This document shows, one piece after another, positions 10,177 through 47,192 of a stretch of DNA of 49,743 nt. Where the stretch lies: the IMG/VR virus record IMGVR_UViG_3300045988_138037. One strand, given 5' to 3'. The stretch's first letter is position 1; each line of letters starts with the position of its first letter. Both the position numbers and the translations under genes were made by a program. This DNA comes from a virus. Under the pieces are notes generated by a model. That model was not told the origin of the DNA. It saw nothing but the letters and a program-made list of their open reading frames with translations, and ran no database searches.

Positions 10177-13100
10177 TGATGTGTATGGATAAAATTATAA
10201 AACACAAAAACGCATATATTGATGCCTTTAAAAAAGGGGTAACAGGGGTTGAGAACAATGTTCTTTACCCTAATGTTGACTCTACTTCTCCATATTATAC
10301 AGAACTTAATGAAGAACAAGAAGTTAGTTCGTTTGCATATGAAGTAGGGAAAACTTTAAAAGGTAATATTGGTGGTTCTGGTGGTGGAGATAATAGTGGT
10401 ACAACTATACCAAATCATAACCACGATGATAGGTATGCAAAAATAGTTCACGACCACGATGGTAGATATTATACTAAAATTCAAATTGATGAGTGGAGAG
10501 ATAGACTTATAAATGGTGATTTGTTATTCAACAAGATAAATTCAAATCATATACAAGCAGGTACTATCGTAGCAGGTAGTACAATAATAGCAAATGGTGC
10601 AATAGGTGATGCTCAAATCAACAAAGTAAGTGCAGATAAACTTGATGCAGGAGTTGTTGACACATCAAAAGTAACAATATCGGGTGCTAATGGTAATTTA
10701 AAACTTAGAGGTAATAGACTTCAAGTATTTGAAGGCATAGGGTCTAAACAATTTGAAAGAGTATCTTTGGGTGATGTGAATGATGACGGTACTGTATATG
10801 GTCTTAGAGTACGTGGTGCAGACGGTCAAACTATATTGTATGATGAGAATGGAGTATATCGTGAAGGTATAACTGACGGTTCTATAAACAATGATAAAAT
10901 AGCAGGAGATGCTAATATAGACGGTGGTAAACTTAATATACACTCTGTTATAGATAATATAAATAAAGATGGTACAGGTACAATACACGGTACTAAAATA
11001 GATATAGACGGAGAGAGTGTAACATCTAAAATATTTAATATCGAACTTAACCAAGATGAACAATCTGAAACAATAGAAAGACAACAATCAGAAATAGACC
11101 AAAATAAAGAACAAATAAAACTTAAAGTAAGTAACCAAAAGTACACGGAAGATATGGCATCTATGACAAGCAAGTTAGAAAAAGCCGAGTCTGACATAGA
11201 GATTTTAAACGAAGGTATAAAACTTACTGCAAGTAAAACAGAAGTACAAAATCAAATCAACAATCTTAAAGATTTCGTATCAGGAGAATTAGGTGATATA
11301 AGTGTTGGTGGAACTAACTACTTAAATAACTCTGCACCTCGTAAAGCTACTGTTGATGAGTTAATAACTTGGGATAGAACGTTAAACGGTACTCGTAAAT
11401 TAACTTATTGGCAAGATTATAATGATAGTGTAGAAAACCCACAGATAGGTTATCATCCACATATAGACCTAGAAACCTTTCATTTCCCTTGTATAGCTCT
11501 TATAAACCGTAATGCGAAGTTTAGTATGGCTAACAGAGAACTAAGTCTTAGGCAGGAAATAAACAATGAAGAAGATATTATAATACCTAATGAACAATAC
11601 GTAATATCTTTTGACGCATATTCTGATACGAGTTTATTTAGTTTCCACGGAGGACTTTATCATAAAAATGTCGAAAGTAATAATTATAACTACCATAGCG
11701 GAAGAATGGATATAACTATCTCACAAGATAATGTAGGTACTTGGAAAAGGTATAGTTATTCGTTTACAATTCACAAAGGAATAGACACATCAGAACCTAT
11801 CTACTTTGTTATTAATGGTCATAACAATCCAGAGGGTAGTGGTTATATAAAAAATATAAAATTAGAAAAAGGTCATATCGTATCTCAATGGACTCCTTCA
11901 CAAACTGACTCTAATGATAGTTTAAATGATGTTGTAAATGATATGAAAGATTTTGTAAACAAATCTATATCTGAATACAATACAAGTATAGATGTTAGAT
12001 TTGATGGTATAACTCAAAGCGTATCTAAAATAGATAAAACTGTCAATGGTGTTAAAAATGATTTAAGTAACTTAGAGATAGGTGCTAGAAACTTAGTTAA
12101 AAACTCTGCATTTATTGACGGTAAAAATAATTGGATATTAGGTGCTAATGTAATTATTGATACAACTAAAACTTTTAATGGGCATCCTTCTTGTAAAAGT
12201 GCACAAAAAGGACTTGCAAGTAATGGTTACAGAGGGTGTGAAAACTATAACCTACCTAATAAAAACTGCTTGTCTATGAAAAAAGGAGAGATTTATACTG
12301 TAAGTTGTTGGTATTATGTTGAAGATAAAAATACTTTTAATGGAATTCTTGCCCTAGAATGTAAAGGTAAGTTAGACAACAATACTTCTAATTCAGTTAT
12401 AATGCGTGTTAGTGTCGATAAAACTGCTATGGTTGAAAGTCAATGGACTAAGATATTTAAAACAATTACTGTTGATAAAGACTATAGTGATGTGTGTGTC
12501 AGAGCGTGGGTAGGTAGAGATGGTATTGCTTGGTTTACTGATTTCAAACTTGAAAAAGGTAATAAATCTACTGATTGGTCTCCTGCACCAGATGATATGA
12601 AAGATTATGTAGATGAAGCTATAACTAATCAAAGTGCAAGTATAGATATTAAATTTGATAGTATAACAAATAGAGTAGAGTCTACTGAACAAACTGTTGA
12701 TGGTGTCAATCAAAAATATACAGAACTTAAACAAACTGTTGATAGCTTTAATTTTACAGGTTTAGTTAAGTTTGAAGATTTATCTAAACTTGGTGGCACT
12801 ATTATAAATGGTGGTAATATAGACACAACTAATCTTCGTGTAAAAGGTGAGTTGATAAGTGGTCAGATAAATGGTGTAGGTGGTATAAAATTTGCTCAAG
12901 GTGCAATTATATCTTCTTATGACTCTCATGTTGGAGGATATAAAGGCATACAAATATCTGCTCCTAGCATCAAACTTGGTGATAAAGTAGACATACATAG
13001 TGCTATAATGTATGGTGATGTTATTGGTAAAAATAATACTAGCTCTGGTACTACAACTTGGACTATGAGTAGTACAGGTGCTTTGAGTTGTGCTAGTGCT

Positions 13101-13751
13101 AAATTAAGTGGAACTTTGAGTGTAAGTGGTGCTATTTATGGTATGAATAATCTTTCACTAGCAAGAGGTTCACTATATGTACCTATCTTTGAAACAAATA
13201 TTACTTGTGATTATATAAGAGGTGGAAACTCTTCTATAGCATTTACAGATACAGGTCCAATACACTTTATATATAATGGATTGAGAAGTTCATTTATTGC
13301 AGGAGGAGTAATATTTTTACCGCATGGTGGGAATGTAAATTGCGACCACTTTAGATTGGGAGCAGGAATTATGGCATCTCCTTCTAGTGGTAGTTTTCAC
13401 TTTTTAACTGCCAATGGAACTACTTCACCACTATATGCAGGAATATTATATTCGGCAACTAGAATGTCTTTAAATGAACCTATGGTTATATCAAACAATT
13501 CTGTTTTTGATAAGATAAATAGTATAGATGTAATAGAAACTAAAGATGGATTAAGGTTATATAACCCTATACCAACCACAAAAGCCATAGACAAATCAAC
13601 CGAAGTTGTAAAGACTGAATATGATGAGGATAAAAACGAAATAAATACGAGTGTAGATTATACATCTGCAATTTCTACACTATGGAAAGCAGTACAAGAA
13701 TTAAAGCAAGAAAATGAAGAACTTAAAAAACTTATAAAAGGAGAGATTTAA
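10176..13751 (+). CDS. Tail fibre/spike protein with duplicated carbohydrate-binding-like modules and a C-terminal intramolecular-chaperone-like domain
   Basis: NHNHDDRY/HDHDGRY His motifs. Two modules end in KLEKGHIVSQWTPS and KLEKGNKSTDWSPAPDD. The C-terminus VDYTSAISTLWKAVQELKQENEELKKL resembles S74-type chaperone domains. Confidence 0.65.
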   Translation: MMCMDKIIKHKNAYIDAFKKGVTGVENNVLYPNVDSTSPYYTELNEEQEVSSFAYEVGKTLKGNIGGSGGGDNSGTTIPNHNHDDRYAKIVHDHDGRYYTKIQIDEWRDRLINGDLLFNKINSNHIQAGTIVAGSTIIANGAIGDAQINKVSADKLDAGVVDTSKVTISGANGNLKLRGNRLQVFEGIGSKQFERVSLGDVNDDGTVYGLRVRGADGQTILYDENGVYREGITDGSINNDKIAGDANIDGGKLNIHSVIDNINKDGTGTIHGTKIDIDGESVTSKIFNIELNQDEQSETIERQQSEIDQNKEQIKLKVSNQKYTEDMASMTSKLEKAESDIEILNEGIKLTASKTEVQNQINNLKDFVSGELGDISVGGTNYLNNSAPRKATVDELITWDRTLNGTRKLTYWQDYNDSVENPQIGYHPHIDLETFHFPCIALINRNAKFSMANRELSLRQEINNEEDIIIPNEQYVISFDAYSDTSLFSFHGGLYHKNVESNNYNYHSGRMDITISQDNVGTWKRYSYSFTIHKGIDTSEPIYFVINGHNNPEGSGYIKNIKLEKGHIVSQWTPSQTDSNDSLNDVVNDMKDFVNKSISEYNTSIDVRFDGITQSVSKIDKTVNGVKNDLSNLEIGARNLVKNSAFIDGKNNWILGANVIIDTTKTFNGHPSCKSAQKGLASNGYRGCENYNLPNKNCLSMKKGEIYTVSCWYYVEDKNTFNGILALECKGKLDNNTSNSVIMRVSVDKTAMVESQWTKIFKTITVDKDYSDVCVRAWVGRDGIAWFTDFKLEKGNKSTDWSPAPDDMKDYVDEAITNQSASIDIKFDSITNRVESTEQTVDGVNQKYTELKQTVDSFNFTGLVKFEDLSKLGGTIINGGNIDTTNLRVKGELISGQINGVGGIKFAQGAIISSYDSHVGGYKGIQISAPSIKLGDKVDIHSAIMYGDVIGKNNTSSGTTTWTMSSTGALSCASAKLSGTLSVSGAIYGMNNLSLARGSLYVPIFETNITCDYIRGGNSSIAFTDTGPIHFIYNGLRSSFIAGGVIFLPHGGNVNCDHFRLGAGIMASPSSGSFHFLTANGTTSPLYAGILYSATRMSLNEPMVISNNSVFDKINSIDVIETKDGLRLYNPIPTTKAIDKSTEVVKTEYDEDKNEINTSVDYTSAISTLWKAVQELKQENEELKKLIKGEI

Positions 13752-14707: not shown

Positions 14708-14781
14708 TGGCAGGAGTGGTAAGAATTGAACTCACGTCTACGGTTTTGGAGACCGTTGTGTTACCATTACACCACACTCCT
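14708..14781 (-). tRNA. trnW: tRNA-Trp (anticodon CCA) with encoded CCA end
   Basis: The reverse complement AGGAGTGTGGTGTAATGGTAACACAACGGTCTCCAAAACCGTAGACGTGAGTTCAATTCTTACCACTCCTGCCA folds as a 74-nt cloverleaf. It has a 7-bp acceptor stem, anticodon loop CTCCAAA and T-loop TTCAATT. Confidence 0.9.
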
Positions 14782-16434: not shown

Positions 16435-16950
16435 TTAATACTTATTATCTTGTCTTTTGTGATTTTCTTTATTTTTGTCTTTATAGCACTTGTATAAATC
16501 TTCTATATTGTATCCACACTTATTAACTACTACTCCTAATACCAATAATATTTGGTTTAAATCTTCCCAATCTTTCTCGATAAACATATCGCTTATCATA
16601 CAATCTAGCATACCGATTAAATCATTCATATCATATTCATCTGTATTATAATCGCCTGGTTGCTTTTCTTCTACTAATTCAACTCTATTATCTATTGCTA
16701 TACTTAGTATAAAGTGTAGTACATCACATGCTTCTTCTAGTTGATTAGTTTTATTTTTGTTTTTCTTCCAATATTTAAAACTTTCTATCTCGTTTGCTAA
16801 TTCAAATAACTCTGTTTTTAAAGCTAAGAATTTCTCTATATTTAGGTTAGCGTCCGCAGGTATATCATTTTCTTTTTTTACTCTTGTGTCTAATTTTCTT
16901 TGTAAGCGTCTCATTTCGTTTAATTCTTCTTGTGTAAAAACTGTTCTCAT
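16435..16950 (-). CDS. Dimeric (all-alpha) dUTPase / NTP pyrophosphohydrolase family protein
   Basis: KFLALKTELFELANEIESFKYWK, EEACDVLHFILS and a C-terminal YKDKNKENHKRQDNKY resemble dUTPase_2-family motifs. Confidence 0.65.
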   Translation of the reverse strand: MRTVFTQEELNEMRRLQRKLDTRVKKENDIPADANLNIEKFLALKTELFELANEIESFKYWKKNKNKTNQLEEACDVLHFILSIAIDNRVELVEEKQPGDYNTDEYDMNDLIGMLDCMISDMFIEKDWEDLNQILLVLGVVVNKCGYNIEDLYKCYKDKNKENHKRQDNKY

Positions 16951-16972: not shown

Positions 16973-17332
16973 CTACATATCGCAAATATCTTGCTCGTAC
17001 TCTTTAATTATAACATTTTTTCTATTTTCTGCCAATGCTTTAAGCCCTAATTCACACGTTTGTATTATAGCACTTATACCTGCACAAGTTATACTGTCCT
17101 CGTTATGTCCGTGTACTTCTATATTCATATAACCGTCGCCTTTAGTTATGTTTATTTTAGTTATACCTTCTAGTTTTCTCAATTTTATATCACTCCTTTT
17201 TCTTCCACTTATTATACTTGATACGTGTCCTTGTGTTATTCCGTATTTTTTCGCTATATCTATTTGTTTTTCTCCATTAAGATATGCACTCTTTATCTTT
17301 TCTATTTCGTGATTTGTTAATTTAAACTCCAT
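16973..17332 (-). CDS. prp: Fusion of an N-terminal HTH domain with a Prp-like (ribosomal protein L27-processing) cysteine protease domain
   Basis: HTH: QIDIAKKYGITQGHVSSIISG. Prp catalytic His/Cys signature: EVHGHNEDSITCAGISAIIQT (compare S. aureus Prp GHADHGEYGHDIVCAGASAV). Confidence 0.7.
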   Translation of the reverse strand: MEFKLTNHEIEKIKSAYLNGEKQIDIAKKYGITQGHVSSIISGRKRSDIKLRKLEGITKINITKGDGYMNIEVHGHNEDSITCAGISAIIQTCELGLKALAENRKNVIIKEYEQDICDM

Positions 17333-17336
17333 TTTA

Positions 17337-18161
17337 TTACCCCCACATTTTCGCCATTAAAGTGTTGTACATAAGTGATAAAACTGTCATTACTCCTGTA
17401 TGACCCGTTCCAGATGCTACTAACACATCAAGCTCTTCTAAATCTTCAATTTTTACATCTCCACAAAGTTTACCTTCGTACATATTCATAGAACAATCTA
17501 TTATTATTTGTCCGTCTTTAAAATAACTCTTATCGAAGAATTTAGCTTTACCTATACCTGTTATAACTATATCTGCGTTTTGCATCTTCTCTTTTAAGTT
17601 TTTAGTTTTTGAATGACACATTGTAACAGTTGCATTTTCATCTGTAAGCATTATTTGAAGCGGTTTACCTATTAAATTACTTCTATTTACTATTACTACG
17701 TCTTTTCCTTCTAATTCTGTGATGTGAATTAACATATTTAAAACACCAAGAGCAGTACAAGGGTACATTATTTTACCGTTTTGAGTAGTTAATCTACCTA
17801 TTTGTTTAGTACCTAGACCGTCTACGTCTTTCTCCACATCAATAGTATCAAGAGTTTTACGCTCGTCTAAGTGTTTTGGAAGTGGCAATTGAACTATTAT
17901 ACCATTTGTATCACAATCTGTGTTGTAATACTCTATAATCATTTCTAAATCTCTTTGTGGTATATCGTTTTTTAATAACGTATGTTCAACTTCTATACCT
18001 AACTCTTTGCCTAATTTAATTTTGTTCTTAACATAAGAATTTGATGCTTTATCTCCTTCAACTTGTAATATAACTAATTTAGGAGCAATGCCTTTTGTCA
18101 TTGAAGCCTTAAACGCATCCTTTATTTCTTGTGCTATTTCTTTTGTATTTATTATATTCAT
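17337..18161 (-). CDS. folD: Bifunctional 5,10-methylene-tetrahydrofolate dehydrogenase/cyclohydrolase
   Basis: PKLVILQVEGDKASNSYVKNKIK, GIIVQLPLPKHL, KDVDG, PCTALG, VVIVNRSNLIGKPL and ATVTMCHSKT motifs. Confidence 0.85.
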   Translation of the reverse strand: MNIINTKEIAQEIKDAFKASMTKGIAPKLVILQVEGDKASNSYVKNKIKLGKELGIEVEHTLLKNDIPQRDLEMIIEYYNTDCDTNGIIVQLPLPKHLDERKTLDTIDVEKDVDGLGTKQIGRLTTQNGKIMYPCTALGVLNMLIHITELEGKDVVIVNRSNLIGKPLQIMLTDENATVTMCHSKTKNLKEKMQNADIVITGIGKAKFFDKSYFKDGQIIIDCSMNMYEGKLCGDVKIEDLEELDVLVASGTGHTGVMTVLSLMYNTLMAKMWG

Positions 18162-27284: not shown

Positions 27285-27923
27285 TTATAAACCTATCTCT
27301 TCATCTTCTTCTGATGATTTGTTAGAGAATACTTCTTCTGGACTCTTACCACTCATTAATCCTAAAACTTGTTCTTGTGTAGGTTTTTTAAATATTTCAT
27401 CAAACGCTTTTAAATCTTTACATAATTCTTTTTGTTCATCAGTTAATTCTGATGGTGTACAAGGTAATAATGTATAAGTTACGTCTGTACTTCCTGCATT
27501 TTGAGTTTTTACTTTTATATTATAACTTCTTATATCTCCTATCTCTTCGTGTAGAGCATGTAATTGAGTAAAGAATGTTTTTCCTTGTTCTAATATTTCA
27601 ACATTACCTGTTTTTAAGTTTAATACGTGCATAGCAAATCTTCTGTTACTTGAATATTGAGGTTTTATTCCTGCTTGTTTTGATGCTTTTATTGCATTAC
27701 ATATTGGACATTCTGCTCCTAAACAAGATACATTTCTCTTTGCTTGTGCTATCCAATGTGCCCATCTTACAAATGGTTCTCCATCTAAAAATCTTAATTC
27801 TGTTAATCCATTTGTTAATTTAGTAAATTCAGTCTTTCCTGTGTTTGATTGAGGGTCTCTTAATACTTCATCCCACCCTCCGAACATTTGTAAATTCATA
27901 GCATTGTTTAATTCTTTCATCAC
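27285..27923 (-). CDS. gp32-like single-stranded DNA-binding protein with a zinc finger, an acidic C-tail and an L27-like N-terminal leader
   Basis: ELRFLDGEPF..H..CLGAECPICNAI..YSSNRRFAMHVL parallels T4 gp32 IRFLPS..H..C..CPVCQYI. Acidic tail SSEEDEEIGL. MNLQMFGG at aa 9-16. Confidence 0.55.
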   Translation of the reverse strand: MMKELNNAMNLQMFGGWDEVLRDPQSNTGKTEFTKLTNGLTELRFLDGEPFVRWAHWIAQAKRNVSCLGAECPICNAIKASKQAGIKPQYSSNRRFAMHVLNLKTGNVEILEQGKTFFTQLHALHEEIGDIRSYNIKVKTQNAGSTDVTYTLLPCTPSELTDEQKELCKDLKAFDEIFKKPTQEQVLGLMSGKSPEEVFSNKSSEEDEEIGL

Positions 27924-29091: not shown

Positions 29092-29769
29092 TCACCCCCA
29101 AGTTTGTGTCATTACTATTTCATTACTGAAATCTAGTATAGTTTCATTATATACTGTTTCACCATTTATGTAATTAAGTAACTTCCATATAGCGTGTGAT
29201 GTTATCGCTAATGCACTTGGTAAAACTGTTTGAGAAACTCCACAAGCACTTACTTCTGCCTCATCATCACTATAAAATGTTTGTTCATACATCTTTGTTT
29301 GTTCTCTGTTTTTCGGGTCAACTACATATATCCTACCTCCACGTAAATCCATACGTGTTTCTATTAACAAATCAATAGAAGGGTTATTTTTTATAGCTCT
29401 GTTATATATATCTTTTCTTGATTTCATAGTATCTGTAAGCATAAATACTATACCTTGCATTGGAACAGAGCCGTCTACCTTCTCATTTCTTGCATTTACA
29501 GTAAAGCCTGTGAATAACTTTATTATATTACGTATTGATAGAGCTTTGTTTCTATCTATATCTCTAACTCCAAACATCTGATTTGGTAAATTGTGCATAC
29601 CAACTTCATCAAAATCGTATATATGTAAGTTACTTAATCCCATTTTTGCAAGTGAGAAAGCAATCCAACTTCCTGTTGCTCCTGCACCTATTATATTTAT
29701 TTTAGTATTAAACTCCTCTGGGTTTAATATGTTGATTTGACGACTAAAATCATCCATTATTCTTGACAT
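29092..29769 (-). CDS. Minimal ThiF/MoeB-type E1-like adenylyltransferase
   Basis: Rossmann GxGxxG INIIGAGATGSWIAFSLAKMG, then IYDFDEVGMHNLPNQMF (D-x-D..NL.RQ-like) and LTDTMKSR. Confidence 0.7.
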   Translation of the reverse strand: MSRIMDDFSRQINILNPEEFNTKINIIGAGATGSWIAFSLAKMGLSNLHIYDFDEVGMHNLPNQMFGVRDIDRNKALSIRNIIKLFTGFTVNARNEKVDGSVPMQGIVFMLTDTMKSRKDIYNRAIKNNPSIDLLIETRMDLRGGRIYVVDPKNREQTKMYEQTFYSDDEAEVSACGVSQTVLPSALAITSHAIWKLLNYINGETVYNETILDFSNEIVMTQTWG

Positions 29770-30960: not shown

Positions 30961-31320
30961 TTAAACTAACAATTCTGGATTTTCGTATATATTTCCTATT
31001 ACTTTACACTTATTGTATATTTTACCTACAAAATAATCTCCTGCTCTATATATCCCAAAGTGATATTCTACTTTTTCAGTTATTATTTCATCTTCAACAT
31101 TTGAATAAAATTCAACTATATCGCCTTCGTATATCTCAGTTCCATTACTATCTTTAATGCCTGTGTATTGCATCAATGTATATAAATATAAAGGTCTTAC
31201 ATCATCTTTGGTGTTTACATAGCAATCATCTCCTAGATGTGAGTATGATACTATTAAATTATCTTGGTCATACATAATATTTTCTTCTTTATTCCATGCT
31301 CTAAATTTAATTTTTCTCAT
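30961..31320 (-). CDS. YopX-family protein
   Basis: KFRAWNKEENIMY ... LMQYTGIKDSNGTEIYEGDIV ... VIGNIYENPELL. Confidence 0.85.
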   Translation of the reverse strand: MRKIKFRAWNKEENIMYDQDNLIVSYSHLGDDCYVNTKDDVRPLYLYTLMQYTGIKDSNGTEIYEGDIVEFYSNVEDEIITEKVEYHFGIYRAGDYFVGKIYNKCKVIGNIYENPELLV

Positions 31321-31329
31321 AACTTCCTC

Positions 31330-32265
31330 CTATTGTATGTAACCTAAATAACTTAAATATTGATTTTCGTTATCTTTACAGTAACTTTCTATTAATATCT
31401 CAAGGTCTATCTCTTCATCTTGTGATAAGAATACTCCTAAATAATCTATAACACTAGAACCGTGTTCTATATAATACATACATTCAAATATATCTTCTGG
31501 TTCTAGCGAGTCAAATATCTCAAGCACTTTATTTTCCTCTTCTTTTTCGCTTGTTTTTTCGTTTTTTTTTGAGTAATTACCATATCCACTATAATCTGTG
31601 TAATCACTCCACCAACTATTACAAGTAGTTACGTTGTTTTTATTAACGTTGTAAGTCTTTTTAGTTACTTTATTACCTATTTCTGATTTGATAGAGTTTA
31701 TTAACTCCTCACTTGGGTCTATTCTTGTACAAATCATCTCTTCTATCTCTGCAATTTTTCTATATAAAGACTCTATTATTTCTGTATCTCCACCATAATT
31801 TATTTCATATGGTAGTTTCTCGTATATAACACCTGTTGTAAAGTCGTATAAATCTATTCTAAAATCACCACTTTTGTTTGCTATTATACGTATAAAGAAA
31901 TCTTCTTCATTTTCTGCGAACACTTCGATTTGCTTATCATCTTGACCAGAAGGTGTAGTAGGCATATTAACGTGAGAATGACCCCACACCTTCATATTAT
32001 TCCATATCTCTACACCATTTTCTTCGTATAACAAGTCCATAGCAAATTCATTAAGTCCTTCTGTTGTTATTTCTGTTGTAGTAGCGTGTACTTCTTGTCT
32101 AAATAAAAACACATCATCTATATAAAATACATTACCTACTCTTCTTGAAGTACCCAACCAACCTATTTCTAGGTCTGATTGGCGTACATACTCCTTCATC
32201 TTGTTCATAGCGTTTAAATTTATACTTATCTTTGGTGCAAATCTATCCATTAACTTAACATTCAT
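31330..32265 (-). CDS. JAB/MPN (JAMM) metallopeptidase with a C-terminal extension
   Basis: Complete JAMM signature: EIGWLG ... HSHVNMPTTPSGQD (H-x-H-x7-S-x2-D). Confidence 0.75.
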   Translation of the reverse strand: MNVKLMDRFAPKISINLNAMNKMKEYVRQSDLEIGWLGTSRRVGNVFYIDDVFLFRQEVHATTTEITTEGLNEFAMDLLYEENGVEIWNNMKVWGHSHVNMPTTPSGQDDKQIEVFAENEEDFFIRIIANKSGDFRIDLYDFTTGVIYEKLPYEINYGGDTEIIESLYRKIAEIEEMICTRIDPSEELINSIKSEIGNKVTKKTYNVNKNNVTTCNSWWSDYTDYSGYGNYSKKNEKTSEKEEENKVLEIFDSLEPEDIFECMYYIEHGSSVIDYLGVFLSQDEEIDLEILIESYCKDNENQYLSYLGYIQ

Positions 32266-32266
32266 A

Positions 32267-33706
32267 TTATAATTCCTCTCTTTCTTCTAACTCTTCTTCG
32301 TAACAATCTTCGCACATTCCTTCTTTTTCTTCTTGACAGTCTGTACAGTACGTATATCCACACTCTTTGCATTGAAATGTATCTTCTTTTCTTACTGCAT
32401 CTCCACATTCTGCACAATCTACAAACAGTTCTTCATAGCAATCTTCACAATACCATTTATCATTTGTGAAGTTCATTTCATCCTTTCTACACTCTTCACC
32501 ACACTCACAACAAGTTTCAATTAAGTCTGAATAACAATCATCACAATGCCATTCATTGTCTATTAAGCTCATTTCATCCTTTCTACACTCTTCACCACAC
32601 TCATAACAAGTTGCAATTAATTCACAATAACAATCATCACAGTAAACATCATCTCCATACCAAGTCATATCATTGTTATGTGCTTTTTCATCACAATTAT
32701 CACAACGGCTATAATCATTTTCATAACATCTTTCACATACATACATACTATTATTATCTATCCAATAAGCGTGGTCATCACACATATGGTCTCCACAATC
32801 TTCGCAATAAAATGCACTATCTTCATCTAATTCCTCATCACATATATGGCAAACTTTGCACTCTCTATCATATGGATTTTCTAAATCATTGCCTCCTTCG
32901 TCTATACAATCCCAATTACGTATGTATGCTCCTGCTGCATCATCTGTATTAACTTGTTGTAAGAAGTTTAAAACAACTATAAACGAAGCATATATCTCGT
33001 AGTTGTTCATATTCTCAACAAGCATAGACCCTGCACTACCCCAACACGCTTCTCCATTTTCTCCATTAACGTGTGGGTGTGGGTCTTTATCTGTCCAATA
33101 TGATTTTCTGTTATAATCCTCATCTAAACCATTTATATAACAAGTCATATCGTCAAAATCAAAACTTAAAAGATATTTATTACCTTTAAACTTGTTACCT
33201 TTCTCATCATATATATCTATGTAATCGGTTTTTATTTCAACTACTTTACCTGTTGGTCTCGCTACTGCACTTACTACATATTTATGGCTTAATATAGCTT
33301 CCATATCACTTGTATAATCTCTACCTTCACCTTCACTACTTAATACTTTTACTCTGCTCATCGCATTTTTGTATGAATTCCAAGCAACATCCATATATTC
33401 TTTATATCTTTTTATATCTCTAAGGTATTCTTGTTCTTCATTTTTAGCTCTTTCTAAAGCCTTTTTATTATCTTTCAAAGCTATCTCATTAAACGCTTTG
33501 CTTAACTCTTTAACTCTATCTTCCATTGTCTTTTCTTTCCTTTCAACTAATTCAAATCTTTCCATTAAATGTCTCTCACTTGGATACTCAACTAAATTCA
33601 TCCAACTGTTACTTAATATCTCTTTAACAGTAGCAGTATCTCCTACTACCATTTTCCCAGAATTTCCATATACTCTTCTAACCACATCTCCTACTTCAAA
33701 TATCAT
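32267..33706 (-). CDS. E2 (UBC)-like domain protein fused to a C-terminal array of CxxC zinc ribbons (RING-like)
   Basis: YLLSFDFDD...DPHPHVNGENGEACWGSAG resembles UBC HPN-x(5-7)-C. The C-terminal 200 aa carry about 15 CxxC pairs, including a 96-nt tandem duplication. Confidence 0.5.
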   Translation of the reverse strand: MIFEVGDVVRRVYGNSGKMVVGDTATVKEILSNSWMNLVEYPSERHLMERFELVERKEKTMEDRVKELSKAFNEIALKDNKKALERAKNEEQEYLRDIKRYKEYMDVAWNSYKNAMSRVKVLSSEGEGRDYTSDMEAILSHKYVVSAVARPTGKVVEIKTDYIDIYDEKGNKFKGNKYLLSFDFDDMTCYINGLDEDYNRKSYWTDKDPHPHVNGENGEACWGSAGSMLVENMNNYEIYASFIVVLNFLQQVNTDDAAGAYIRNWDCIDEGGNDLENPYDRECKVCHICDEELDEDSAFYCEDCGDHMCDDHAYWIDNNSMYVCERCYENDYSRCDNCDEKAHNNDMTWYGDDVYCDDCYCELIATCYECGEECRKDEMSLIDNEWHCDDCYSDLIETCCECGEECRKDEMNFTNDKWYCEDCYEELFVDCAECGDAVRKEDTFQCKECGYTYCTDCQEEKEGMCEDCYEEELEEREEL

Positions 33707-33858
33707 TTATACAACCTCCTAATATTGTATGATTTGGTATTGTAAGTGCTTATACACTTTAAAAAGAGCACAACAGGGTAAAAAATAAGTTTGATATGTA
33801 ATTTTGAAATATCCCCAACGGTATGCGTTGTGCTAAAATTAAAATGTATAAACAAGAA

Positions 33859-33876
33859 GGTCTACGTGTGTAGACC
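33859..33876 (-). terminator. Hairpin downstream of the Ubl gene (possible attenuating terminator)
   Basis: ggtctac-gtgt-gtagacc, followed on the minus strand by ttcttgtttat. Confidence 0.35.
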
Positions 33877-33889
33877 CTCTATTTATTTA

Positions 33890-34708
33890 TTAAGCATTTA
33901 TTTCTGCTATTAATCTTTGTAAGAACATTATTTTATTGTTTATAGCGTGAGCTTCTTCTATGTAAAATCTGTAAGACTTTTCTAAATCTTCTAGCTCTTT
34001 ATTTAAAACATCCATAGCTTTACTATCTTTTGACTCAACTTCTATTTCTCTTACATCAACTACTTCTTCTCTAACTTCTCTTATATCAACTACTTCTTCT
34101 CCATTAAACCCATCAACAATCTCGTTATAAACACTTAAAAACATATCTTCTTCAACTACTAATGTTTCATTACCAACTTCTATTTGTAAAAAGTTATCTC
34201 CACACATATTTATACTGTCTGTATTTATTACTTGTGGAAGTTTTACACCTAATAATATCGTTACTTCTTCTTGTGTACAATCTGTTTTTCTAAAACTAGC
34301 ATTACCTTTTATCATCTTCATAGCAACAAGTAAGTTACCATTGTTTATTCTTGTATCAAGTGCTACCTTCTCACCGTCTAATCTTACCTCGTGGTTAGAT
34401 ACACCTATATTAGCTCTTTCAAATATTTCGTAAGCAGTATCTCCTTCTGTGTACTCAACAACTTCTAATCTACCTGGCATCATACCAACCTTTATGTTTG
34501 GCATATTACCTTTTATCATTTTCATAGCAACTAATAAATTTCCATTGTGTATAGTTCTGTCTAAATCTATCTTTTCTCCGTCTAATCTTATTTCGTGATT
34601 AGATAACTCTACATCTGCTATTTCAAATATTTCTCTTGCAGTTGCTCCTTCGTTTGTAACTACCTCTACTAATCTACCTGGCATCATTCCTACTTTAATT
34701 TTTAACAT
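33890..34708 (-). CDS. Tandem ubiquitin-like (beta-grasp, ThiS/MoaD-like) domain protein with a C-terminal coiled-coil extension
   Basis: Two 68-aa repeats: (M)xKIKVGMMPGRL.VV...G.TA.EIFE.A.....NHE(I/V)RLDGEK..LD..I.NGNLLVAMKMIKGN. Confidence 0.6.
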   Translation of the reverse strand: MLKIKVGMMPGRLVEVVTNEGATAREIFEIADVELSNHEIRLDGEKIDLDRTIHNGNLLVAMKMIKGNMPNIKVGMMPGRLEVVEYTEGDTAYEIFERANIGVSNHEVRLDGEKVALDTRINNGNLLVAMKMIKGNASFRKTDCTQEEVTILLGVKLPQVINTDSINMCGDNFLQIEVGNETLVVEEDMFLSVYNEIVDGFNGEEVVDIREVREEVVDVREIEVESKDSKAMDVLNKELEDLEKSYRFYIEEAHAINNKIMFLQRLIAEINA

Positions 34709-43007: not shown

Positions 43008-43231
43008 TAGAACAAAGAAGTATGGCTATTTACAGTTTTAGTGAGGTTTTACAGTATTTAAAAATAGGACACAAGGCTAAAAGACACGATTGGGACGATA
43101 ATGTATCTATATCTTATGACGAATACATGGGAACAATTTATAAGACAGTTGGTAAAACAATTGCACCGTGGGAAGCACCACAAAAAGATTTATTAGCCGA
43201 AGATTGGTTGGTGATAAAGAATGTCGGATAA
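43004..43231 (+). CDS. DUF2829-family protein (the family that includes the Thoeris anti-defence protein Tad2)
   Basis: FSEVLQYLKIGHKAKRHDW ... APWEAPQKDLLAEDWLVI matches the DUF2829 N- and C-terminal signatures. GTG start with SD ggaggt. Confidence 0.55.
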   Translation: MIEQRSMAIYSFSEVLQYLKIGHKAKRHDWDDNVSISYDEYMGTIYKTVGKTIAPWEAPQKDLLAEDWLVIKNVG

Positions 43232-45344
43232 TTCTAAAAAATATATGCCTACTGAAAAGGAAAGAAAACTTGTAGAGTGGGTGTATTCTAAATTTAAACA
43301 AGCATATGTTGCTAAAGCTCCACTTATGGACAAGTGGAAAGAATATATGAGTGCGTATAAAGGTACGTACTTCCAAAATAAGAACTTACCAGATTACAAA
43401 TCAAATGAGATAAGTAATCACGTATTTTCAACAATAGAAACTATAAGACCTATAATGACAGATAATAACCCTAAGTTCTTAGCAGTTCCTTCTACACCAC
43501 AAGGTATGGAATTTTCTGCCGATGTGCAAACTGCACTTGATTATGAATGGGATAGAGAGAAAATGTCTTTAAAACTTCCTGCACAACTTATACCAATGTT
43601 AGTATATGGAAACGCAGTATGGTTTGTTCAATGGGATGGTAAAGACGGTGAATACGGTAATATAAGTATAAAACCTGTTGACCCTTTCAATATATTTCCA
43701 GACCCATTGGCAGAAAGTGTTGACAATTCTGAATTTTTGGTTTATGCTACTTATAGAAACGCAAATCAAATCAAACAACAATTCCCAGAAAAAGCAAGTG
43801 CCATAGAAGGTTCACGTATAACAATGTCTGAATTAGTTGCCGAAAGAGATAATAACGATACACAAGATGCAAACCAAGTTTTAATACTTGAAATGTGGTG
43901 TCGTGATTGGGTAACAATGGACGAGTCGGTAGAAGGTAAAAAACAACTTAAATATCCTAAAGGAAGAGTTATAACGTGTTTACCAGAATTAGGTATCTTG
44001 TTATCTGATAAGAAAAACCCTTATAAAGATGGAAAATTCCCATTTGTACTTATGAAAAACTATGATATACCTTTTGAGTTTTGGGGTGTTGGAGAAATAG
44101 AACAAATAATGTCTCCTCAACACTATGTAAACGAACTTACAAATCAAATCATAGATAATGCTAAAAATACTGCTAATATGCAATGGATAATAGATAAAAA
44201 CTCTGGTATAGGACAAGGTAAACTTACTAACCGTCCAGGACTTGTTATAAGAAAGACTCCTGGTAGTGAAGTTAGAAGAGATACACCACCTGCTATGCCA
44301 AGTTATGTTAGAGAGCAAATAGAAGTTCTTAAAAAAGATATACAAGATATATCTGGAGTGTTTGACTCACTAAAAGGTGAGCAACAAGGTAGTGTAACTG
44401 CGGCGTCTGCAATACTTGCACTTCAAGAAGCATCTCAAGCACGTATACGTTTAAAAATAAAACTTATGGAAGCATCACTTTCTGAACTTGCTCAAATAGT
44501 TTATTCACGTATGCAACAGTTTTGGAAACTAGATAGATGGGTTAGAGTTACTGATGTAGAAGGTAATCCGTCGTTTAGAGAAATTGGTGCACAAGTTCTT
44601 TCAAATGATTATGACTTAAAAGTTATGGCAGGTTCTACAATGCCTGTAAATAGAAACGCTATGTTAGACTTAATGATTAGACTTGCTCAAACAAATGGTG
44701 AGGACGGTTTACCTCTTGTAGATAGAAAAGCCGTATTAGAGTTCTTACCAACAGGAGATAAGAAAGCTATAACAGATAGATTTGCAGAGCTTCAAGCTCA
44801 ACAACAACAAGCTCAACAAGAACAGTTACAACAAGAGCAACAAATGCAAATGCAACAAGCTCAACAACAAAAAGGTGAGTTAGACCAAAGTGTAACTGAA
44901 CAAGTAATGAGTATGTTACAACAAGTTGTTCAAGCGTCTGATTTGACTTCTAAACAAGTTGATGAACTTATAATGGATAAAGAACAAAGAGATAAGAAAG
45001 AGTATGAGTCTCAAATCGAAGAAAAAGGTTATAAGAGAGGATTAAAAGACGGTAAAGTGCAAAGTAAAGAAGAAGAGGAAGAAACGCCTACTGAGGAAAC
45101 TTCTGATGTGAATGAAGAAGAAAAGAAAATGTTAGAAGAACAATTACTTTCTGAAAATGCACAAATGGAAGAAGCACTTAACTCTCAACAAATACCAGAT
45201 GAAGTCTTAGAAGAGTTATTAGCTTTAGCTCAACAAGACCCAGAGATGTTTAGAGAGATATTACAAAACTATCCACAATTAGCAGAAATGCTACAACAAG
45301 ATATGCAAAATATGAATGGGGGAATGATTAATGAAGATATGTAA
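43221..45344 (+). CDS. Portal protein
   Basis: 707 aa, directly after the terminase genes and before the scaffold and capsid genes; Q/E-rich C-terminal tail. Confidence 0.75.
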   Translation: MSDNSKKYMPTEKERKLVEWVYSKFKQAYVAKAPLMDKWKEYMSAYKGTYFQNKNLPDYKSNEISNHVFSTIETIRPIMTDNNPKFLAVPSTPQGMEFSADVQTALDYEWDREKMSLKLPAQLIPMLVYGNAVWFVQWDGKDGEYGNISIKPVDPFNIFPDPLAESVDNSEFLVYATYRNANQIKQQFPEKASAIEGSRITMSELVAERDNNDTQDANQVLILEMWCRDWVTMDESVEGKKQLKYPKGRVITCLPELGILLSDKKNPYKDGKFPFVLMKNYDIPFEFWGVGEIEQIMSPQHYVNELTNQIIDNAKNTANMQWIIDKNSGIGQGKLTNRPGLVIRKTPGSEVRRDTPPAMPSYVREQIEVLKKDIQDISGVFDSLKGEQQGSVTAASAILALQEASQARIRLKIKLMEASLSELAQIVYSRMQQFWKLDRWVRVTDVEGNPSFREIGAQVLSNDYDLKVMAGSTMPVNRNAMLDLMIRLAQTNGEDGLPLVDRKAVLEFLPTGDKKAITDRFAELQAQQQQAQQEQLQQEQQMQMQQAQQQKGELDQSVTEQVMSMLQQVVQASDLTSKQVDELIMDKEQRDKKEYESQIEEKGYKRGLKDGKVQSKEEEEETPTEETSDVNEEEKKMLEEQLLSENAQMEEALNSQQIPDEVLEELLALAQQDPEMFREILQNYPQLAEMLQQDMQNMNGGMINEDM

Positions 45345-46125
45345 AATGAATTTACAAATGTTTGGTATGAACGATGATAGAGACTTCTTTACATCTGCTT
45401 TTAATGAAGCATATAGTATAACTGATAATACAGAAGCACCTTCTGAGCCAATAGAAGAGCCTGTAAGCGACTCTGTTGAGGAAGTTGAAGAAACACCTGT
45501 TGAAACAACTCCAGTGCCTTATAACCCAAATGACGATGAATTAAGAAGGTTGTATGAGGAGCGTTTTGGTAAAGAAGAAGAACCACAACAAGAAGTTAGT
45601 CCTGTGTATGATGAGGAAACTCAATCTGCACTTGATTTATATAAATATTTAGAACAAAACCCACATCTAGTTCAAGCTATGAGAAACGTAGATGTTGAAG
45701 GTTATACAAACTTAAATAACTTTGTTCCAGATGAATTAACTAAGAAGGTTAAAGAGATGGAAGAGTTTATTGAAGAACAAAGATACAACAGTTATGTATC
45801 TGGACTTAAAAACAAGTATTCTGATTTTGATGAAGATAAGGTTTTAGAATATGCAGAAAAACACGATGTTTTAAACTTAGAAGTAGCTTATAAAGCTATG
45901 AAAGCAGATAGTGTTAAAGAGCCAAATGTAGAAGAACTTAGAAAACAAATCAAAGAAGAGTTACTTAATGAACTTAAACAAAACTCCCTTGAGACACAAT
46001 CAATAGTTGGTGGAGTATCCCAAAAGCCTATCAAACAGGATGACAATGTTAATCTGTCAAGTAGAGAGTCAAGGATAGCGAAAGCTATGGGAATGACACC
46101 TAGCGAATATGCCAAGTGGAGATAA
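45331..46125 (+). CDS. Scaffolding protein with an L27-like N-terminal leader
   Basis: Acidic and helical, between portal and capsid. The N-terminus MKICKMNLQMFG resembles the Firmicute L27 leader (MLKLNLQFFA). Confidence 0.65.
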   Translation: MKICKMNLQMFGMNDDRDFFTSAFNEAYSITDNTEAPSEPIEEPVSDSVEEVEETPVETTPVPYNPNDDELRRLYEERFGKEEEPQQEVSPVYDEETQSALDLYKYLEQNPHLVQAMRNVDVEGYTNLNNFVPDELTKKVKEMEEFIEEQRYNSYVSGLKNKYSDFDEDKVLEYAEKHDVLNLEVAYKAMKADSVKEPNVEELRKQIKEELLNELKQNSLETQSIVGGVSQKPIKQDDNVNLSSRESRIAKAMGMTPSEYAKWR

Positions 46126-46163
46126 AATAAATAAAACATAACATAACAAAAGGAGCAAACAAT

Positions 46164-47192
46164 ATGCCAAAATTAAAAATGAACTTACAAATGTTTGGTG
46201 CACAAACACCAGTAGACCCAACAACAACTAACACTCACGTGTCTGAAAACTTTGGTAAATTATTATACCCAGGTTTAAGAAAGATATTCTTCGAGACTTA
46301 TGATGAGATACCAGAGCAATTCCCAAAAATATTCAACGTACAAACTTCTACTTCTGCAACTGAAACAGACCACGGAATGGGAGCATTTGGTGATTGGGAA
46401 GAAAGAACATCAGAAGTTAGCACAGTAGCATACGCTAAAATATCTGATGGTGGAGGTGTTACTTACACTCACAAGGCTTTCACTAAAGGTTTTATGATAG
46501 GTAGAGAATTATACGATGACGAAAAATATGGTCAAATGAAGAAAATGGCTAAAGCACTTGCTAGAGCAGGTAGAGCTAAAGTTGAAAGAGATGCTATAAC
46601 TGTTTTAACTAAAGGTTTCAAAGGAACAAGTGGTGCTTTCAAAGGTAGAGATGAAAAAGAGTTATTCCACGATGCTCATACATTAGTTGACTGTTCAAGT
46701 AAAACTTGTTCAAACTTAGTGAAAGGAGCTTTATCAAGAGAAACATTAAAAGAAGGATTAAAATTAATGAGAACTCAATTAGATGAAGCAGGTAACTTAA
46801 TACAAATGAAAGCTACTAAGTTAATAATACCTCCTGCTTTAGAAGATGAAGCTAGAAGAATATTACATTCTACACAAGTATCTGGAACTGAATTAAATGA
46901 TACAAACGAATACTTAAAGAGTGCAGGTCTTGAAATAGTAGTTCTTGACTACTTAGGAGAAGAAGCAGGTGGTTCTGATACTATGTGGTTCTTACAAGAC
47001 GGTTCAAGACACGAATTAAACTTCTTCTGGAGAGTTAAACCAGAGTTTAAAAATGAAGAAGATTTCGATACTTTCGTTGCTAAGTACAGAGGGTATATGA
47101 GATATTCTTACGGGTTCTCTGATTGGAGAGGTATGGTAGGTTCTAAAGGTGAAGCTGAACTTTCATCAACAGGTAGAGCTTCTAAAAAATAA
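46164..47192 (+). CDS. Major capsid protein with an L27-like N-terminal leader
   Basis: Position, size (342 aa) and a strong terminator downstream; N-terminus MPKLKMNLQMFGA. Confidence 0.75.
   Translation: MPKLKMNLQMFGAQTPVDPTTTNTHVSENFGKLLYPGLRKIFFETYDEIPEQFPKIFNVQTSTSATETDHGMGAFGDWEERTSEVSTVAYAKISDGGGVTYTHKAFTKGFMIGRELYDDEKYGQMKKMAKALARAGRAKVERDAITVLTKGFKGTSGAFKGRDEKELFHDAHTLVDCSSKTCSNLVKGALSRETLKEGLKLMRTQLDEAGNLIQMKATKLIIPPALEDEARRILHSTQVSGTELNDTNEYLKSAGLEIVVLDYLGEEAGGSDTMWFLQDGSRHELNFFWRVKPEFKNEEDFDTFVAKYRGYMRYSYGFSDWRGMVGSKGEAELSSTGRASKK

What the first reader, a model, noticed from the sequence alone, without database searches (positions are those of the whole stretch)
45331..46202. 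Scaffold and major capsid proteins both start with an L27-type leader (x5-MNLQMFG)
The scaffold begins MKICKMNLQMFGM and the capsid protein begins MPKLKMNLQMFGA. The shared heptapeptide closely mimics the N-terminal extension of Firmicute/Fusobacterial L27 (MLKLNLQFF|A in S. aureus), which Prp cleaves after the Phe. This predicts maturation cleavage after ..LQMF in both head proteins. It also constrains the host to a lineage with the L27 extension/Prp system.
Basis: partly seen in the sequence, partly recalled or inferred. Interest (0 to 1): 0.65.

Follow-up and report, generated by a model that had tools for sequence, protein, structure and literature searches.

The report
Prp-type cleavable leader on phage proteins
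Three proteins of this roughly 50 kb phage (scaffold, major capsid protein and a single-strand DNA-binding protein) start with the same short leader that copies the cleavable N-terminus of Firmicute ribosomal protein L27, and the phage carries its own shrunken version of the protease (Prp) that cuts such leaders; this is a known kind of phage-host mimicry with two unusual twists.

Summary
MNLQMFG occurs three times in the window (0 expected by chance).

The leader is conserved in 120/120 close MCP homologues and 58/59 full-length SSB homologues. Most of the wider gpT-like capsid family lacks it. Several leaderless orthologues start exactly at the residue after the Phe (M-ATPVQPT; M-SGWDF). This supports cleavage after ..LQMF.

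ORF 16973-17332(-) is an HTH fused to a truncated Prp core of about 60 aa. The core keeps an invariant His/Cys and has lost about 40 internal residues. One relative carries the core alone. More distant relatives, with a canonical xLQxF'A leader on the MCP only, carry a full-length Prp at the syntenic site. One leaderless relative has no Prp there.

The basic arrangement is known: 80alpha uses host Prp, and Enterococcus phiFL3A and Oenococcus phiS13 have their own Prp plus leaders on both head proteins. New here are the mini-Prp, its early-region location, the SSB substrate and the relaxed motif (P3 K/Q/R, P1' Gly). Cleavage is inferred, not shown. The host is probably a low-GC Bacillota.

The parts
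45331..45363 (+). Scaffold leader MKICKMNLQMF (11 aa). The predicted cut is after F11, between 45363 and 45364.
   Evidence: Scaffolds of all 9 close relatives' loci carry a variant: MNLCMFS, MDLQMFS, INLQYFT or INLKMFGF.
45364..46125 (+). Mature part of the putative scaffolding protein. It is acidic with a helical-looking central region, and its C-terminus is ..MGMTPSEYAKWR.
   Evidence: It lies between portal and MCP. It has no Pfam or PHROG family. Its C-terminus is similar to that of the Bacillus phage PK1 ORF upstream of its MCP.
46164..46196 (+). Major capsid protein leader MPKLKMNLQMF (11 aa). The predicted cut is after F11.
   Evidence: 120/120 close homologues keep K-M-N-L-[K/Q/R]-M-F-G.
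46197..47192 (+). Mature major capsid protein, Mu gpT-like. Residues 12-26 (GAQTPVDPTTTNTHV) form a clade-specific linker ahead of the conserved core, which starts near NFGKLLYPGLRKIFF.
   Evidence: PF10124 6.7e-18 and PF25209 4.4e-16. Most distant homologues of about 300 aa align from query residue ~27 and have no leader.
27882..27920 (-). Third leader, MKELNNAMNLQMF (13 aa), at the N-terminus of the probable SSB. The predicted cut is after F13.
   Evidence: 58 of 59 full-length homologues keep M-N-L-x-x-F-G. This region has pLDDT <50 in the model, so it is likely flexible.
27285..27881 (-). Probable single-strand DNA-binding protein in the replication module. It has a Cys-rich motif (C66/C71/C74 invariant) and an acidic C-terminal tail.
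   Evidence: PHROG 14578 (1.6e-10) and PHROG 1192 (8e-5), both 'single strand DNA binding protein'. AF2 model pLDDT 82. BFVD fold matches with E 1e-9 to 1e-4 include annotated phage SSBs. One source names it 'DNA binding protein'. It lies next to DnaB.
16973..17167 (-). Mini-Prp core (residues 56-119): beta-beta, G75-H76, C83-A-G-I-S-A helix, then a short C-terminal strand. About 40 internal residues of a full Prp are missing.
   Evidence: PF04327 scores 23.4 bits against a GA of 27. All 16 homologues hit PF04327, best 2.4e-6. H76 and C83 are invariant. Alignment with full-length phage Prps shows the internal deletion. AF2 gives only a beta-beta-alpha, at low confidence.
17168..17332 (-). N-terminal helix-turn-helix domain fused to the mini-Prp. 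It is accessory, because some relatives lack it.
   Evidence: Weak Sigma70_r4 and HTH_3 hits. Three helices in the model at pLDDT 74-88. The relative L101:15522-15704 encodes the 60-aa core alone, and P0143 (83 aa) also lacks the HTH.
43221..45344 (+). Portal protein (context). No canonical prohead protease gene lies between portal and MCP or elsewhere in the window.
   Evidence: P22_portal and SU10_portal hits. Pfam and PHROG scans of most ORFs of about 110 aa or more found no other peptidase.

Best explanation
The 11-13 residue N-terminal segment x(4-7)-M-N-L-Q-M-F is a Prp-type propeptide that copies the cleavable extension of Firmicute ribosomal protein L27. A Prp-family cysteine protease most likely removes it by cutting after the Phe. 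That would leave G-M-NDD.. on the scaffold, G-AQTPVDP.. on the capsid protein and G-GWDEV.. on the SSB.

The phage lineage carries its own Prp gene in the early region beside the dUTPase gene. It is full-length (99 aa) in more distant relatives. In the window's clade it has shrunk to a core of about 60 aa, and in the window itself that core is fused to an HTH.

I infer that this mini-Prp, probably as a dimer, is the cognate processing enzyme or an essential part of it. Host Prp may also contribute. By analogy with L27 and 80alpha, the leader probably keeps self-assembling proteins (capsid, scaffold, SSB filament) chaperoned or inactive until it is removed.

Shown here: the motif, its conservation, the position of the leader boundary, the Prp homology, the invariant His/Cys and the co-distribution. 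Inferred: that cleavage happens, which enzyme does it, and what the leader is for.
For: 1. Three exact copies of MNLQMFG sit at N-termini, with 0 expected by chance.
2. The leader matches the published Prp motif, and Prp has been shown experimentally to cleave both 80alpha CP and SP at F|A (PMC5744158; PMC9405229).
3. The leader is conserved in 120/120 MCP and 58/59 SSB homologues, with invariant L at P4 and F at P1 and near-invariant N at P5.
4. The leader is a clade-specific add-on. Of the 150 best cluster representatives, only three near relatives carry a recognisable leader (P0145, P0215 and the degenerate P0147). Most of the rest start near query residue 27 with no extension.
5. Leaderless orthologues start exactly at P1' for the MCP (about six sequence types) and for the SSB.
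6. Co-distribution with a phage Prp:
   - Window clade: three leaders plus a mini-Prp (window; IMGVR 3300012983_000009).
   - Mid clade (IMGVR 2883993747_000002, almost fully covered): one leader on the MCP plus one full-length Prp at the syntenic site. That Prp scores 78 bits on PF04327 and hits PDB 1S12 at 2e-7 and 4PEO/7KLD at 2.7e-4.
   - Leaderless genome (IMGVR 3300018411_000035): the PolIII-PDDEXK-..-RusA slot has no Prp.
7. H76, C83 and the CAGxSA helix are invariant in all 16 mini-Prp homologues, which range from 61 to 95% identity to the window protein.
8. The stand-alone 60-aa core passes the Pfam gathering score, 27.5 against 27.
9. No other protease was found in the window.
10. 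The clade with the shortened His-Cys loop also has a relaxed P3 (K 79, Q 36, R 4 of 120). In SaPrp that loop contacts the P3 Gln.
Against: - No proteomic or N-terminal data exist, so cleavage is untested.
[quoted passage not shown] The window protein scores below the Pfam gathering cut-off (23.4 against 27). Its model is poor (pLDDT 64) and Foldseek found nothing meaningful. It may not be catalytic.
- Bacillus phage PK1, the closest isolate, has an L27-like leader on its scaffold but no Prp gene in its complete genome. A 36 kb mid-clade contig with an MCP leader shows no Prp in the 35 kb examined. So host Prp can evidently suffice for such leaders.
- Only 27.9 of the 44.4 kb of the leaderless control genome were examined.
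- The co-distribution rests on about five genomes.
Confidence: 0.62

Rival explanations
1. The leaders are cleaved only by the host's ribosomal Prp, as in 80alpha. The phage mini-Prp is not the processing enzyme. It could be a leader-binding chaperone, a regulator (HTH fusion), or a decoy or dominant-negative subunit that interferes with host Prp dimers and L27 maturation.
For: - 80alpha CP and SP are cut by host Prp (PMC5744158).
- PK1 has a scaffold leader and no phage Prp.
- The mini-Prp has lost about 40% of the fold and scores below the Pfam cut-off in the window.
- Prp has a proposed chaperone role, and a catalytically dead SaPrp has effects when overexpressed (PMC9405229).
- The HTH fusion suggests a DNA-related role.
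Against: - The catalytic His and Cys are invariant in every mini-Prp homologue, which a pure decoy or regulator would not need.
- The HTH is dispensable in relatives.
- Relatives keep a full-length, high-scoring Prp at the same locus together with a leader.
- P3 is mostly Lys and P1' is Gly in this clade. That departs from the L27 consensus on which the host enzyme is selected.
Confidence: 0.27
2. The shared leader is not a cleavage site at all. It is a retained N-terminal tag, for example for co-translational chaperoning, targeting to an assembly site, or efficient translation initiation.
For: - In 80alpha the SP N-terminus is needed for assembly, but its cleavage is dispensable, and CP cleavage is dispensable too (PMC5744158).
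- An SSB carrying the tag shows that the role is not restricted to head maturation.
Against: - The motif is that of a characterised protease substrate, with invariant P1 Phe and a small P1'.
- It co-occurs with a Prp gene.
- Leaderless orthologues begin precisely at P1', as expected if the mature protein starts there.
- Synonymous differences between the three copies argue against an RNA-level signal.
Confidence: 0.08
3. The repeat is a chance match or a recent DNA duplication or recombination scar with no function.
For: The three copies are nearly identical at the DNA level, with one synonymous change from the scaffold copy in the MCP and one in the SSB over the matched 20 nt.
Against: - None is expected by chance.
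- The copies are conserved across homologues down to about 65% identity in three unrelated protein families, with peptide-level but not DNA-level constraint.
Confidence: 0.01

Closest known systems
Staphylococcus phage 80alpha capsid (gp47) and scaffold (gp46) leaders cleaved by host Prp (Wall et al. 2015; PMC5744158)
   Same: Both head proteins carry an N-terminal L27-like leader (..KLNLQHF'A, ..KFNLQFF'A) of 13-14 residues that is cut after Phe. The phage has no canonical prohead protease.
   Different: 80alpha has no Prp gene of its own, and its cleavage has been shown experimentally. Here the phage encodes a truncated Prp, P1' is Gly, P2 is Met, P3 is often Lys, and a replication protein (SSB) also carries the leader.
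Enterococcus phage phiFL3A (gp45 DUF464 'peptidase') and Oenococcus phage phiS13: phage-encoded full-length Prp in the head module
   Same: A phage-encoded Prp homologue occurs together with L27-type leaders on both scaffold and MCP. In phiFL3A these are LLLLNLQFF'A and IKMNLQIF'A. In phiS13 they are LLNLQRF'A and TVNLQRF'A.
   Different: Their Prp is full length (97-103 aa) and lies between the portal and minor head protein genes. Their head proteins belong to a different, SPP1-like head module. I found no experimental work on them in the held literature. Here the Prp is about 60 aa, with or without an HTH, and sits among early genes.
Bacterial Prp (YsxB, MEROPS C108, PF04327) and the long L27 precursor
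   Same: The His/Cys dyad context is the same (GH....C-A-x-x-S-A). The substrate motif is (D/N)-L-Q-x-F followed by a small residue. Prp is proposed to chaperone a protein that joins a large assembly.
   Different: [quoted passage not shown] The window protein lacks the middle beta-alpha region. It also has a His-Cys loop 5 residues shorter, like T. maritima TM1457.
Streptomyces phage Kromp gp6 (62 aa, annotated 'protease')
   Same: It has the same mini architecture (beta-beta, GH..C-AAVSA helix, short C-terminal strand) and scores 29.6 bits on PF04327. Its scaffold and MCP share an N-terminal motif, WF(Q/R)L(T/D)RHD.
   Different: Its host is an actinobacterium. The gene lies between scaffold and MCP. 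The shared motif is not L27-like. The phage also has a separate annotated capsid maturation protease.
Streptococcus phage Cp-1 protease (the other member of MEROPS clan CR) and T4 gp21 with capsid-targeting/propeptide sequences
   Same: A phage-encoded protease removes N-terminal extensions from capsid and associated proteins.
   Different: The Cp-1 extension is about 40-48 aa and is not L27-like (PMC9405229). T4 gp21 is a serine protease of an unrelated fold (from my own knowledge of T4).

Membership tests
Prp substrate (L27-type N-terminal propeptide) | The motif lies within the first ~9-15 residues of the protein. | tested here: met
   P1 Phe is residue 11 (scaffold, MCP) or 13 (SSB).
Prp substrate (L27-type N-terminal propeptide) | Consensus MLxx(D/N)LQ(F/L)F'A(S/H), with P1 Phe and a small P1' (PMC9405229). 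| tested here: met
   The leader is N-L-Q-M-F'G. P5, P4, P3 and P1 match. P2 is Met rather than F/L (80alpha CP has His there). P1' is Gly rather than Ala/Ser, which is still small.
Prp substrate (L27-type N-terminal propeptide) | The leader is actually removed from the mature protein. | not testable with these tools
   The evidence is only indirect: leaderless orthologues start at P1'.
Prp substrate (L27-type N-terminal propeptide) | A Prp protease is available, from host or phage. | tested here: inconclusive
   A phage Prp-like gene is present. The host was not identified, so the presence of a host Prp is inferred from a likely Bacillota host.
Peptidase_Prp (PF04327, MEROPS C108), for ORF 16973-17332(-) | Score at or above the Pfam gathering threshold (27 bits). 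| tested here: not met
   The window protein scores 23.4 bits at E 7.2e-5. The stand-alone orthologue L101:15522-15704 scores 27.5 and Kromp gp6 scores 29.6, so both pass. All 16 homologues hit the family at E<=0.01.
Peptidase_Prp (PF04327, MEROPS C108), for ORF 16973-17332(-) | Catalytic His and Cys in the GH...C(A/S)(A/G)xSA context. | tested here: met
   G75-H76 and C83-A-G-I-S-A are invariant in 16/16 homologues. They align with the His/Cys of full-length phage Prps, which in turn hit the PDB Prps 1S12 and 4PEO/7KLD.
Peptidase_Prp (PF04327, MEROPS C108), for ORF 16973-17332(-) | [quoted passage not shown] | tested here: not met
   About 40 internal residues are absent relative to the 97-103 aa phage Prps. 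The Pfam match covers profile positions 2-63 of 90. The AF2 model shows beta-beta-alpha only, at pLDDT about 60.
Peptidase_Prp (PF04327, MEROPS C108), for ORF 16973-17332(-) | Proteolytic activity on the leader, and a homodimeric active form. | not testable with these tools
   This needs expression and an assay.
Mu gpT-like / Phage_capsid_4 major capsid protein | Significant match to PF10124 or PF25209, and position in the head module. | tested here: met
   E-values are 6.7e-18 and 4.4e-16, both above their cut-offs. The gene follows the portal and scaffold genes.
Phage single-strand DNA-binding protein, for ORF 27285-27920(-) | Sequence or fold similarity to known SSBs, an acidic C-terminal tail, and replication-module context. 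| tested here: met
   PHROG 14578 and 1192 both match. BFVD fold hits include annotated SSBs at E 1e-9 to 1e-4. The tail reads ..SSEEDEEIGL. DnaB and primase are neighbours. PDB searches by sequence and by Foldseek were not significant, and ssDNA binding itself is untested.

The most novel reading that the evidence does not exclude
A Prp core of about 60 residues (beta-beta-alpha-beta with the His/Cys dyad) is a working minimal cysteine protease, or the catalytic subunit of one. This phage clade has recruited it, away from the head module, to process a small regulon of leader-tagged, self-assembling proteins. That regulon includes the replicative SSB as well as the capsid and scaffold. The L27-type leader would then be a portable 'hold-until-cleaved' tag whose specificity (K-M-N-L-x-M-F|G) has drifted away from the host L27/Prp pair.
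Probability: 0.35. Interest if true: 0.72.

Novelty: new variant of a known kind. Interest (0 to 1): 0.55.

Why it matters
Prp/L27 processing is essential in Firmicutes and is being pursued as a narrow-spectrum antibiotic target. Phages are where Prp was discovered.

This lineage offers a natural series on a single capsid backbone:
- no leader and no Prp;
- a leader on the scaffold only, with host Prp presumably doing the cutting;
- a leader on the MCP with a full-length phage Prp;
- leaders on MCP, scaffold and SSB with a 60-aa mini-Prp.

The series could show what the leader is for, how little of the Prp fold is needed for activity, and how protease and substrate specificity co-evolve. A leader on a replication SSB would extend Prp-type processing beyond ribosomes and virion parts. 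The motif also gives a cheap host-phylum clue for uncultured phages.

Tried and rejected
- DNA-level search of the head region against 50,697 phage records found only a 126-nt match to Bacillus phage PK1, so no close isolate exists.
- Foldseek of the HTH-mini-Prp model against the PDB returned only HTH regulators at E>0.05. The model is too poor (pLDDT 64) to use.
- A profile search of the mini-Prp against PDB sequences gave TM1457 only at E 0.25.
- PDB sequence and Foldseek searches for the SSB were not significant; the top hit was PRD1 P12 SSB at E 0.16. The viral structure library was informative.
- Host identification attempts:
  - The genome-contig scan gave three short MAG contigs (Bacilli, Schnuerera, Lachnospiraceae), and binning of phage contigs is unreliable.
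  - Cluster-member and contig look-ups gave no organism names.
- Wall et al. 2015 and 2017 (PMC4418427, PMC5397363) are not held, so I could not check what they say about phage-encoded Prp homologues.
- Within-genome co-variation of P3 between substrates was examined and is not strict. Examples are L014 scaffold C against MCP Q, and L015 Q against R. I make no claim from it.
- The protein-shuffle control for shared N-terminal 7-mers was weak, because 31 of 2000 shuffles shared some 7-mer between two ORFs in the six-frame ORF set. I rely on the DNA-pattern control instead.
- Rejected idea: the SSB is a packaged internal protein targeted by the leader, like a T4 capsid-targeting sequence. Its acidic tail and replication-module position make a replicative SSB more likely. 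This reading is not excluded.

Full report
OBSERVATION. The two ORFs exist as described. ORF 45331-46125(+) begins MKICKMNLQMFGM and ORF 46164-47192(+) begins MPKLKMNLQMFGA, each behind a plausible ribosome-binding site. A six-frame scan found the exact heptapeptide MNLQMFG three times, not two. The third copy is at the N-terminus of ORF 27285-27920(-), MKELNNAMNLQMFGGWDEV... The back-translated pattern matches 3 times, with 0 expected in 100 dinucleotide-preserving shuffles. The three DNA copies differ only at synonymous positions.

CONTEXT. The window is a phage genome of about 50 kb at about 31% G+C, and it is circularly permuted. Structural genes run on the + strand from about 40.5 kb through the end and on to 14.4 kb. 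Early and replication genes lie on the - strand between 15 and 40 kb.
- The head module is terS, terL, a P22/SU10-like portal (43221-45344), the scaffold, a Mu gpT-like/Phage_capsid_4 MCP, and an SU10-like adaptor.
- The early region encodes Pol III alpha, DnaB, primase, a PD-(D/E)XK nuclease, FolD, a dimeric dUTPase, RusA, ThiF-like and YopX proteins.
- No integrase was found, and no canonical prohead protease.

THE THIRD CARRIER. ORF 27285-27920(-) lies beside DnaB. It matches two PHROG families annotated as single-strand DNA-binding protein. It has an invariant Cys-rich motif and an acidic C-terminal tail. It models well (pLDDT 82, with a disordered leader). Its fold matches phage proteins that include annotated SSBs, at E 1e-9 to 1e-4. 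PDB searches were not significant. I call it a probable SSB.

CONSERVATION AND BOUNDARY.
- All 120 closest MCP clusters (82-97% identity) keep K-M-N-L-[K 79 / Q 36 / R 4]-M-F-G-[A/V/T].
- 58 of 59 full-length SSB homologues, down to about 65% identity, keep M-N-L-x-x-F-G.
- All nine loci of close relatives have a leader on the scaffold as well: MNLCMFS, MDLQMFS, INLQYFT or INLKMFGF.
- Most of the wider capsid family lacks the leader. Among the 150 best representatives of 50%-identity clusters, most are about 300 aa and align from query residue ~27. Only P0145 (FDLQMF-A) and P0215 carry a clear leader. P0147 has a degenerate one (MLKLINRLF-A), and a few others have unrelated N-terminal extensions.
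- In IMG/VR relatives at 57-66% identity the MCP carries a canonical L27-like leader, [F/L/M]-[D/N/G]-L-Q-x-[F/H/Y]'A-TPVQPT. Their scaffolds start MNI(D/E)EYRA.. with no leader.
- Several relatives have leaderless MCPs that begin M-ATPVQPT, M-PTPVQPT, M-TTPVQPT or M-PVTPI. That is exactly at the residue following the Phe in their leader-bearing cousins.
- Mid-clade SSBs begin (TTG)M-SGWDF behind a strong RBS, where the window reads ..LQMF-GGWDEV.

THE PHAGE PRP.
- ORF 16973-17332(-) has an N-terminal HTH. Its C-terminal region hits Peptidase_Prp at 23.4 bits, below the gathering score of 27, and covers profile positions 2-63 of 90.
- All 16 homologues hit the family, and G75-H76 and C83-AGISA are invariant.
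- In IMGVR 3300012983_000009 (MCP 76% identical) all three leaders are present. There the Prp part is a stand-alone 60-aa ORF just upstream of the dUTPase gene, and it scores 27.5 bits.
- Walking along the mid-clade contig IMGVR 2883993747_000002 (49.9 kb, almost fully covered) revealed a full-length 99-aa Prp next to the dUTPase and RusA genes, which is the syntenic position. It scores 78 bits on PF04327 and hits solved Prps (TM1457 at 2e-7; S. aureus Prp 4PEO/7KLD at 2.7e-4). That genome has a leader only on its MCP.
- Alignment shows that the mini-Prp is a full Prp with about 40 internal residues removed and a His-Cys loop 5 residues shorter.
- A leaderless relative (IMGVR 3300018411_000035) has PolIII, PDDEXK, a MazG-like gene and RusA at that locus and no Prp. 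Only 27.9 of its 44.4 kb were seen.
- Counter-examples exist. Bacillus phage PK1, the closest isolate at 52% MCP identity, has LLKLDLQKF'S on its scaffold, no leader on its MCP, and no Prp in its complete genome. A 36 kb mid-clade contig with an MCP leader shows no Prp.

WHAT IS ALREADY KNOWN.
- Host Prp cleaves both the CP and SP of S. aureus phage 80alpha at F|A within an L27-like leader. Cleavage of CP is dispensable, and the SP leader is needed for assembly (PMC5744158).
- The L27 motif and the roles of P1, P1' and P3 are described in PMC9405229 and PMC9261936.
- A tblastn search with the mid-clade Prp finds full-length Prp homologues in the head modules of Oenococcus, Latilactobacillus, Lactococcus, Brochothrix, Enterococcus, Dorea and Listeria phages. 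They are annotated 'peptidase' or DUF464.
- In phiFL3A and phiS13 both scaffold and MCP start with L27-type leaders.
- So 'phage Prp plus leaders on both head proteins' is an existing, if little studied, arrangement.
- Streptomyces phage Kromp gp6 is a 62-aa mini-Prp between its scaffold and MCP genes, and those two proteins share a different N-terminal motif.

MECHANISM.
- Most likely (about 0.6): the leaders are propeptides cut after Phe by a Prp-family protease, with the phage's own mini-Prp as the cognate enzyme and possibly host Prp as well.
- Main rival (about 0.27): host Prp does the cutting, and the mini-Prp is a chaperone, regulator or decoy.
- Points for the phage enzyme: the invariant dyad, the syntenic full-length orthologue, the co-distribution with leaders, the early-region location matching an early substrate (SSB), and a motif that has drifted from the L27 consensus (P3 mostly Lys, P1' Gly).
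- Points against: the loss of 40% of the fold, and the PK1 case.
- The purpose of the leader is inferred by analogy with L27 and 80alpha. It may hold or chaperone self-assembling proteins until they are processed.

HOST. The host was not identified. Several clues point to a low-GC Bacillota host:
- K-MNLQ-xF resembles the L27 leaders of Clostridia, Enterococcus and Lactobacillus more than that of Fusobacterium (FNIQLF).
- The nearest isolate infects Bacillus.
- The MAG bins are Bacilli, Schnuerera and Lachnospiraceae.
- The hosts named for isolate phages with a full-length Prp are all Firmicutes.
- The genome carries a YopX gene and an Amidase_3-SPOR lysin.

VERDICT. The core phenomenon is a new member of a known kind. 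The mini-Prp, its relocation and HTH fusion, the SSB substrate and the relaxed motif make it a new variant worth a bench test.

Noticed in passing
L006 (Streptomyces phage Kromp MH744420.1) 3249-4350: Kromp gp6 is a 62-aa mini-Prp (PF04327, 29.6 bits) lying between the scaffold and MCP genes. The scaffold and MCP share an N-terminal motif, GWFQLTRHD and SWFRLDRHD. This may be an actinophage analogue with a different leader.
   Followed up: partly
P0149, P0150, P0151, P0171: Some gpT-like MCPs at 46-50% identity have N-terminal extensions that are not L27-like. Examples are ..ELLA-VTTP and ..TLIA-IEGVDTHQ. They may represent a different propeptide type. P0147 (MLKLINRLF-A) looks like a degenerate L27-type leader.
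   Followed up: no
window 17337-18161(-), 16435-16950(-), 29092-29769(-): The phage encodes a FolD-like methylene-THF dehydrogenase/cyclohydrolase, a dimeric dUTPase and a ThiF-family protein. In the relative L101 the FolD slot is occupied by a 311-aa lipoprotein-like ORF that I did not identify. In mid-clade phages the dUTPase is the trimeric type instead.
   Followed up: partly
window 90-2405(+), 10176-13751(+), 4618-9960(+): The large tail proteins include a collagen-repeat plus Big_2 fibre and a CBM_4_9-containing 1191-aa protein. The 1780-aa and 708-aa ORFs have no family hit.
   Followed up: no
window 14708-14781(-): A single tRNA-Trp (CCA) lies at the junction between the lysin gene and the early region.
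   Followed up: no
L105/L153/L157 (IMGVR 3300002859_000002, 36.4 kb): This mid-clade contig is 98% identical in MCP to the Prp-bearing 49.9 kb genomes. It lacks the whole block from RusA, dUTPase and Prp onward (about 13 kb): the tail gene is followed directly by DnaB and SSB. This is either a deletion variant or an assembly join.
   Followed up: partly
L003 (Schnuerera MAG contig) 5569-6576; L015 3950-: There are odd leader variants. L003 has NLSLH-G, with P3 Ser and P1 His. L015 has MNLRMF-P, with Pro at P1', which a Prp-type enzyme might not accept.
   Followed up: no
L102 (Bacillus phage PK1 OM112209.1) 31088-34151: The PK1 record leaves the portal and scaffold ORFs unannotated between the DUF3307 gene and the MCP. 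The unannotated scaffold carries the L27-like leader LLKLDLQKF-S.
   Followed up: partly
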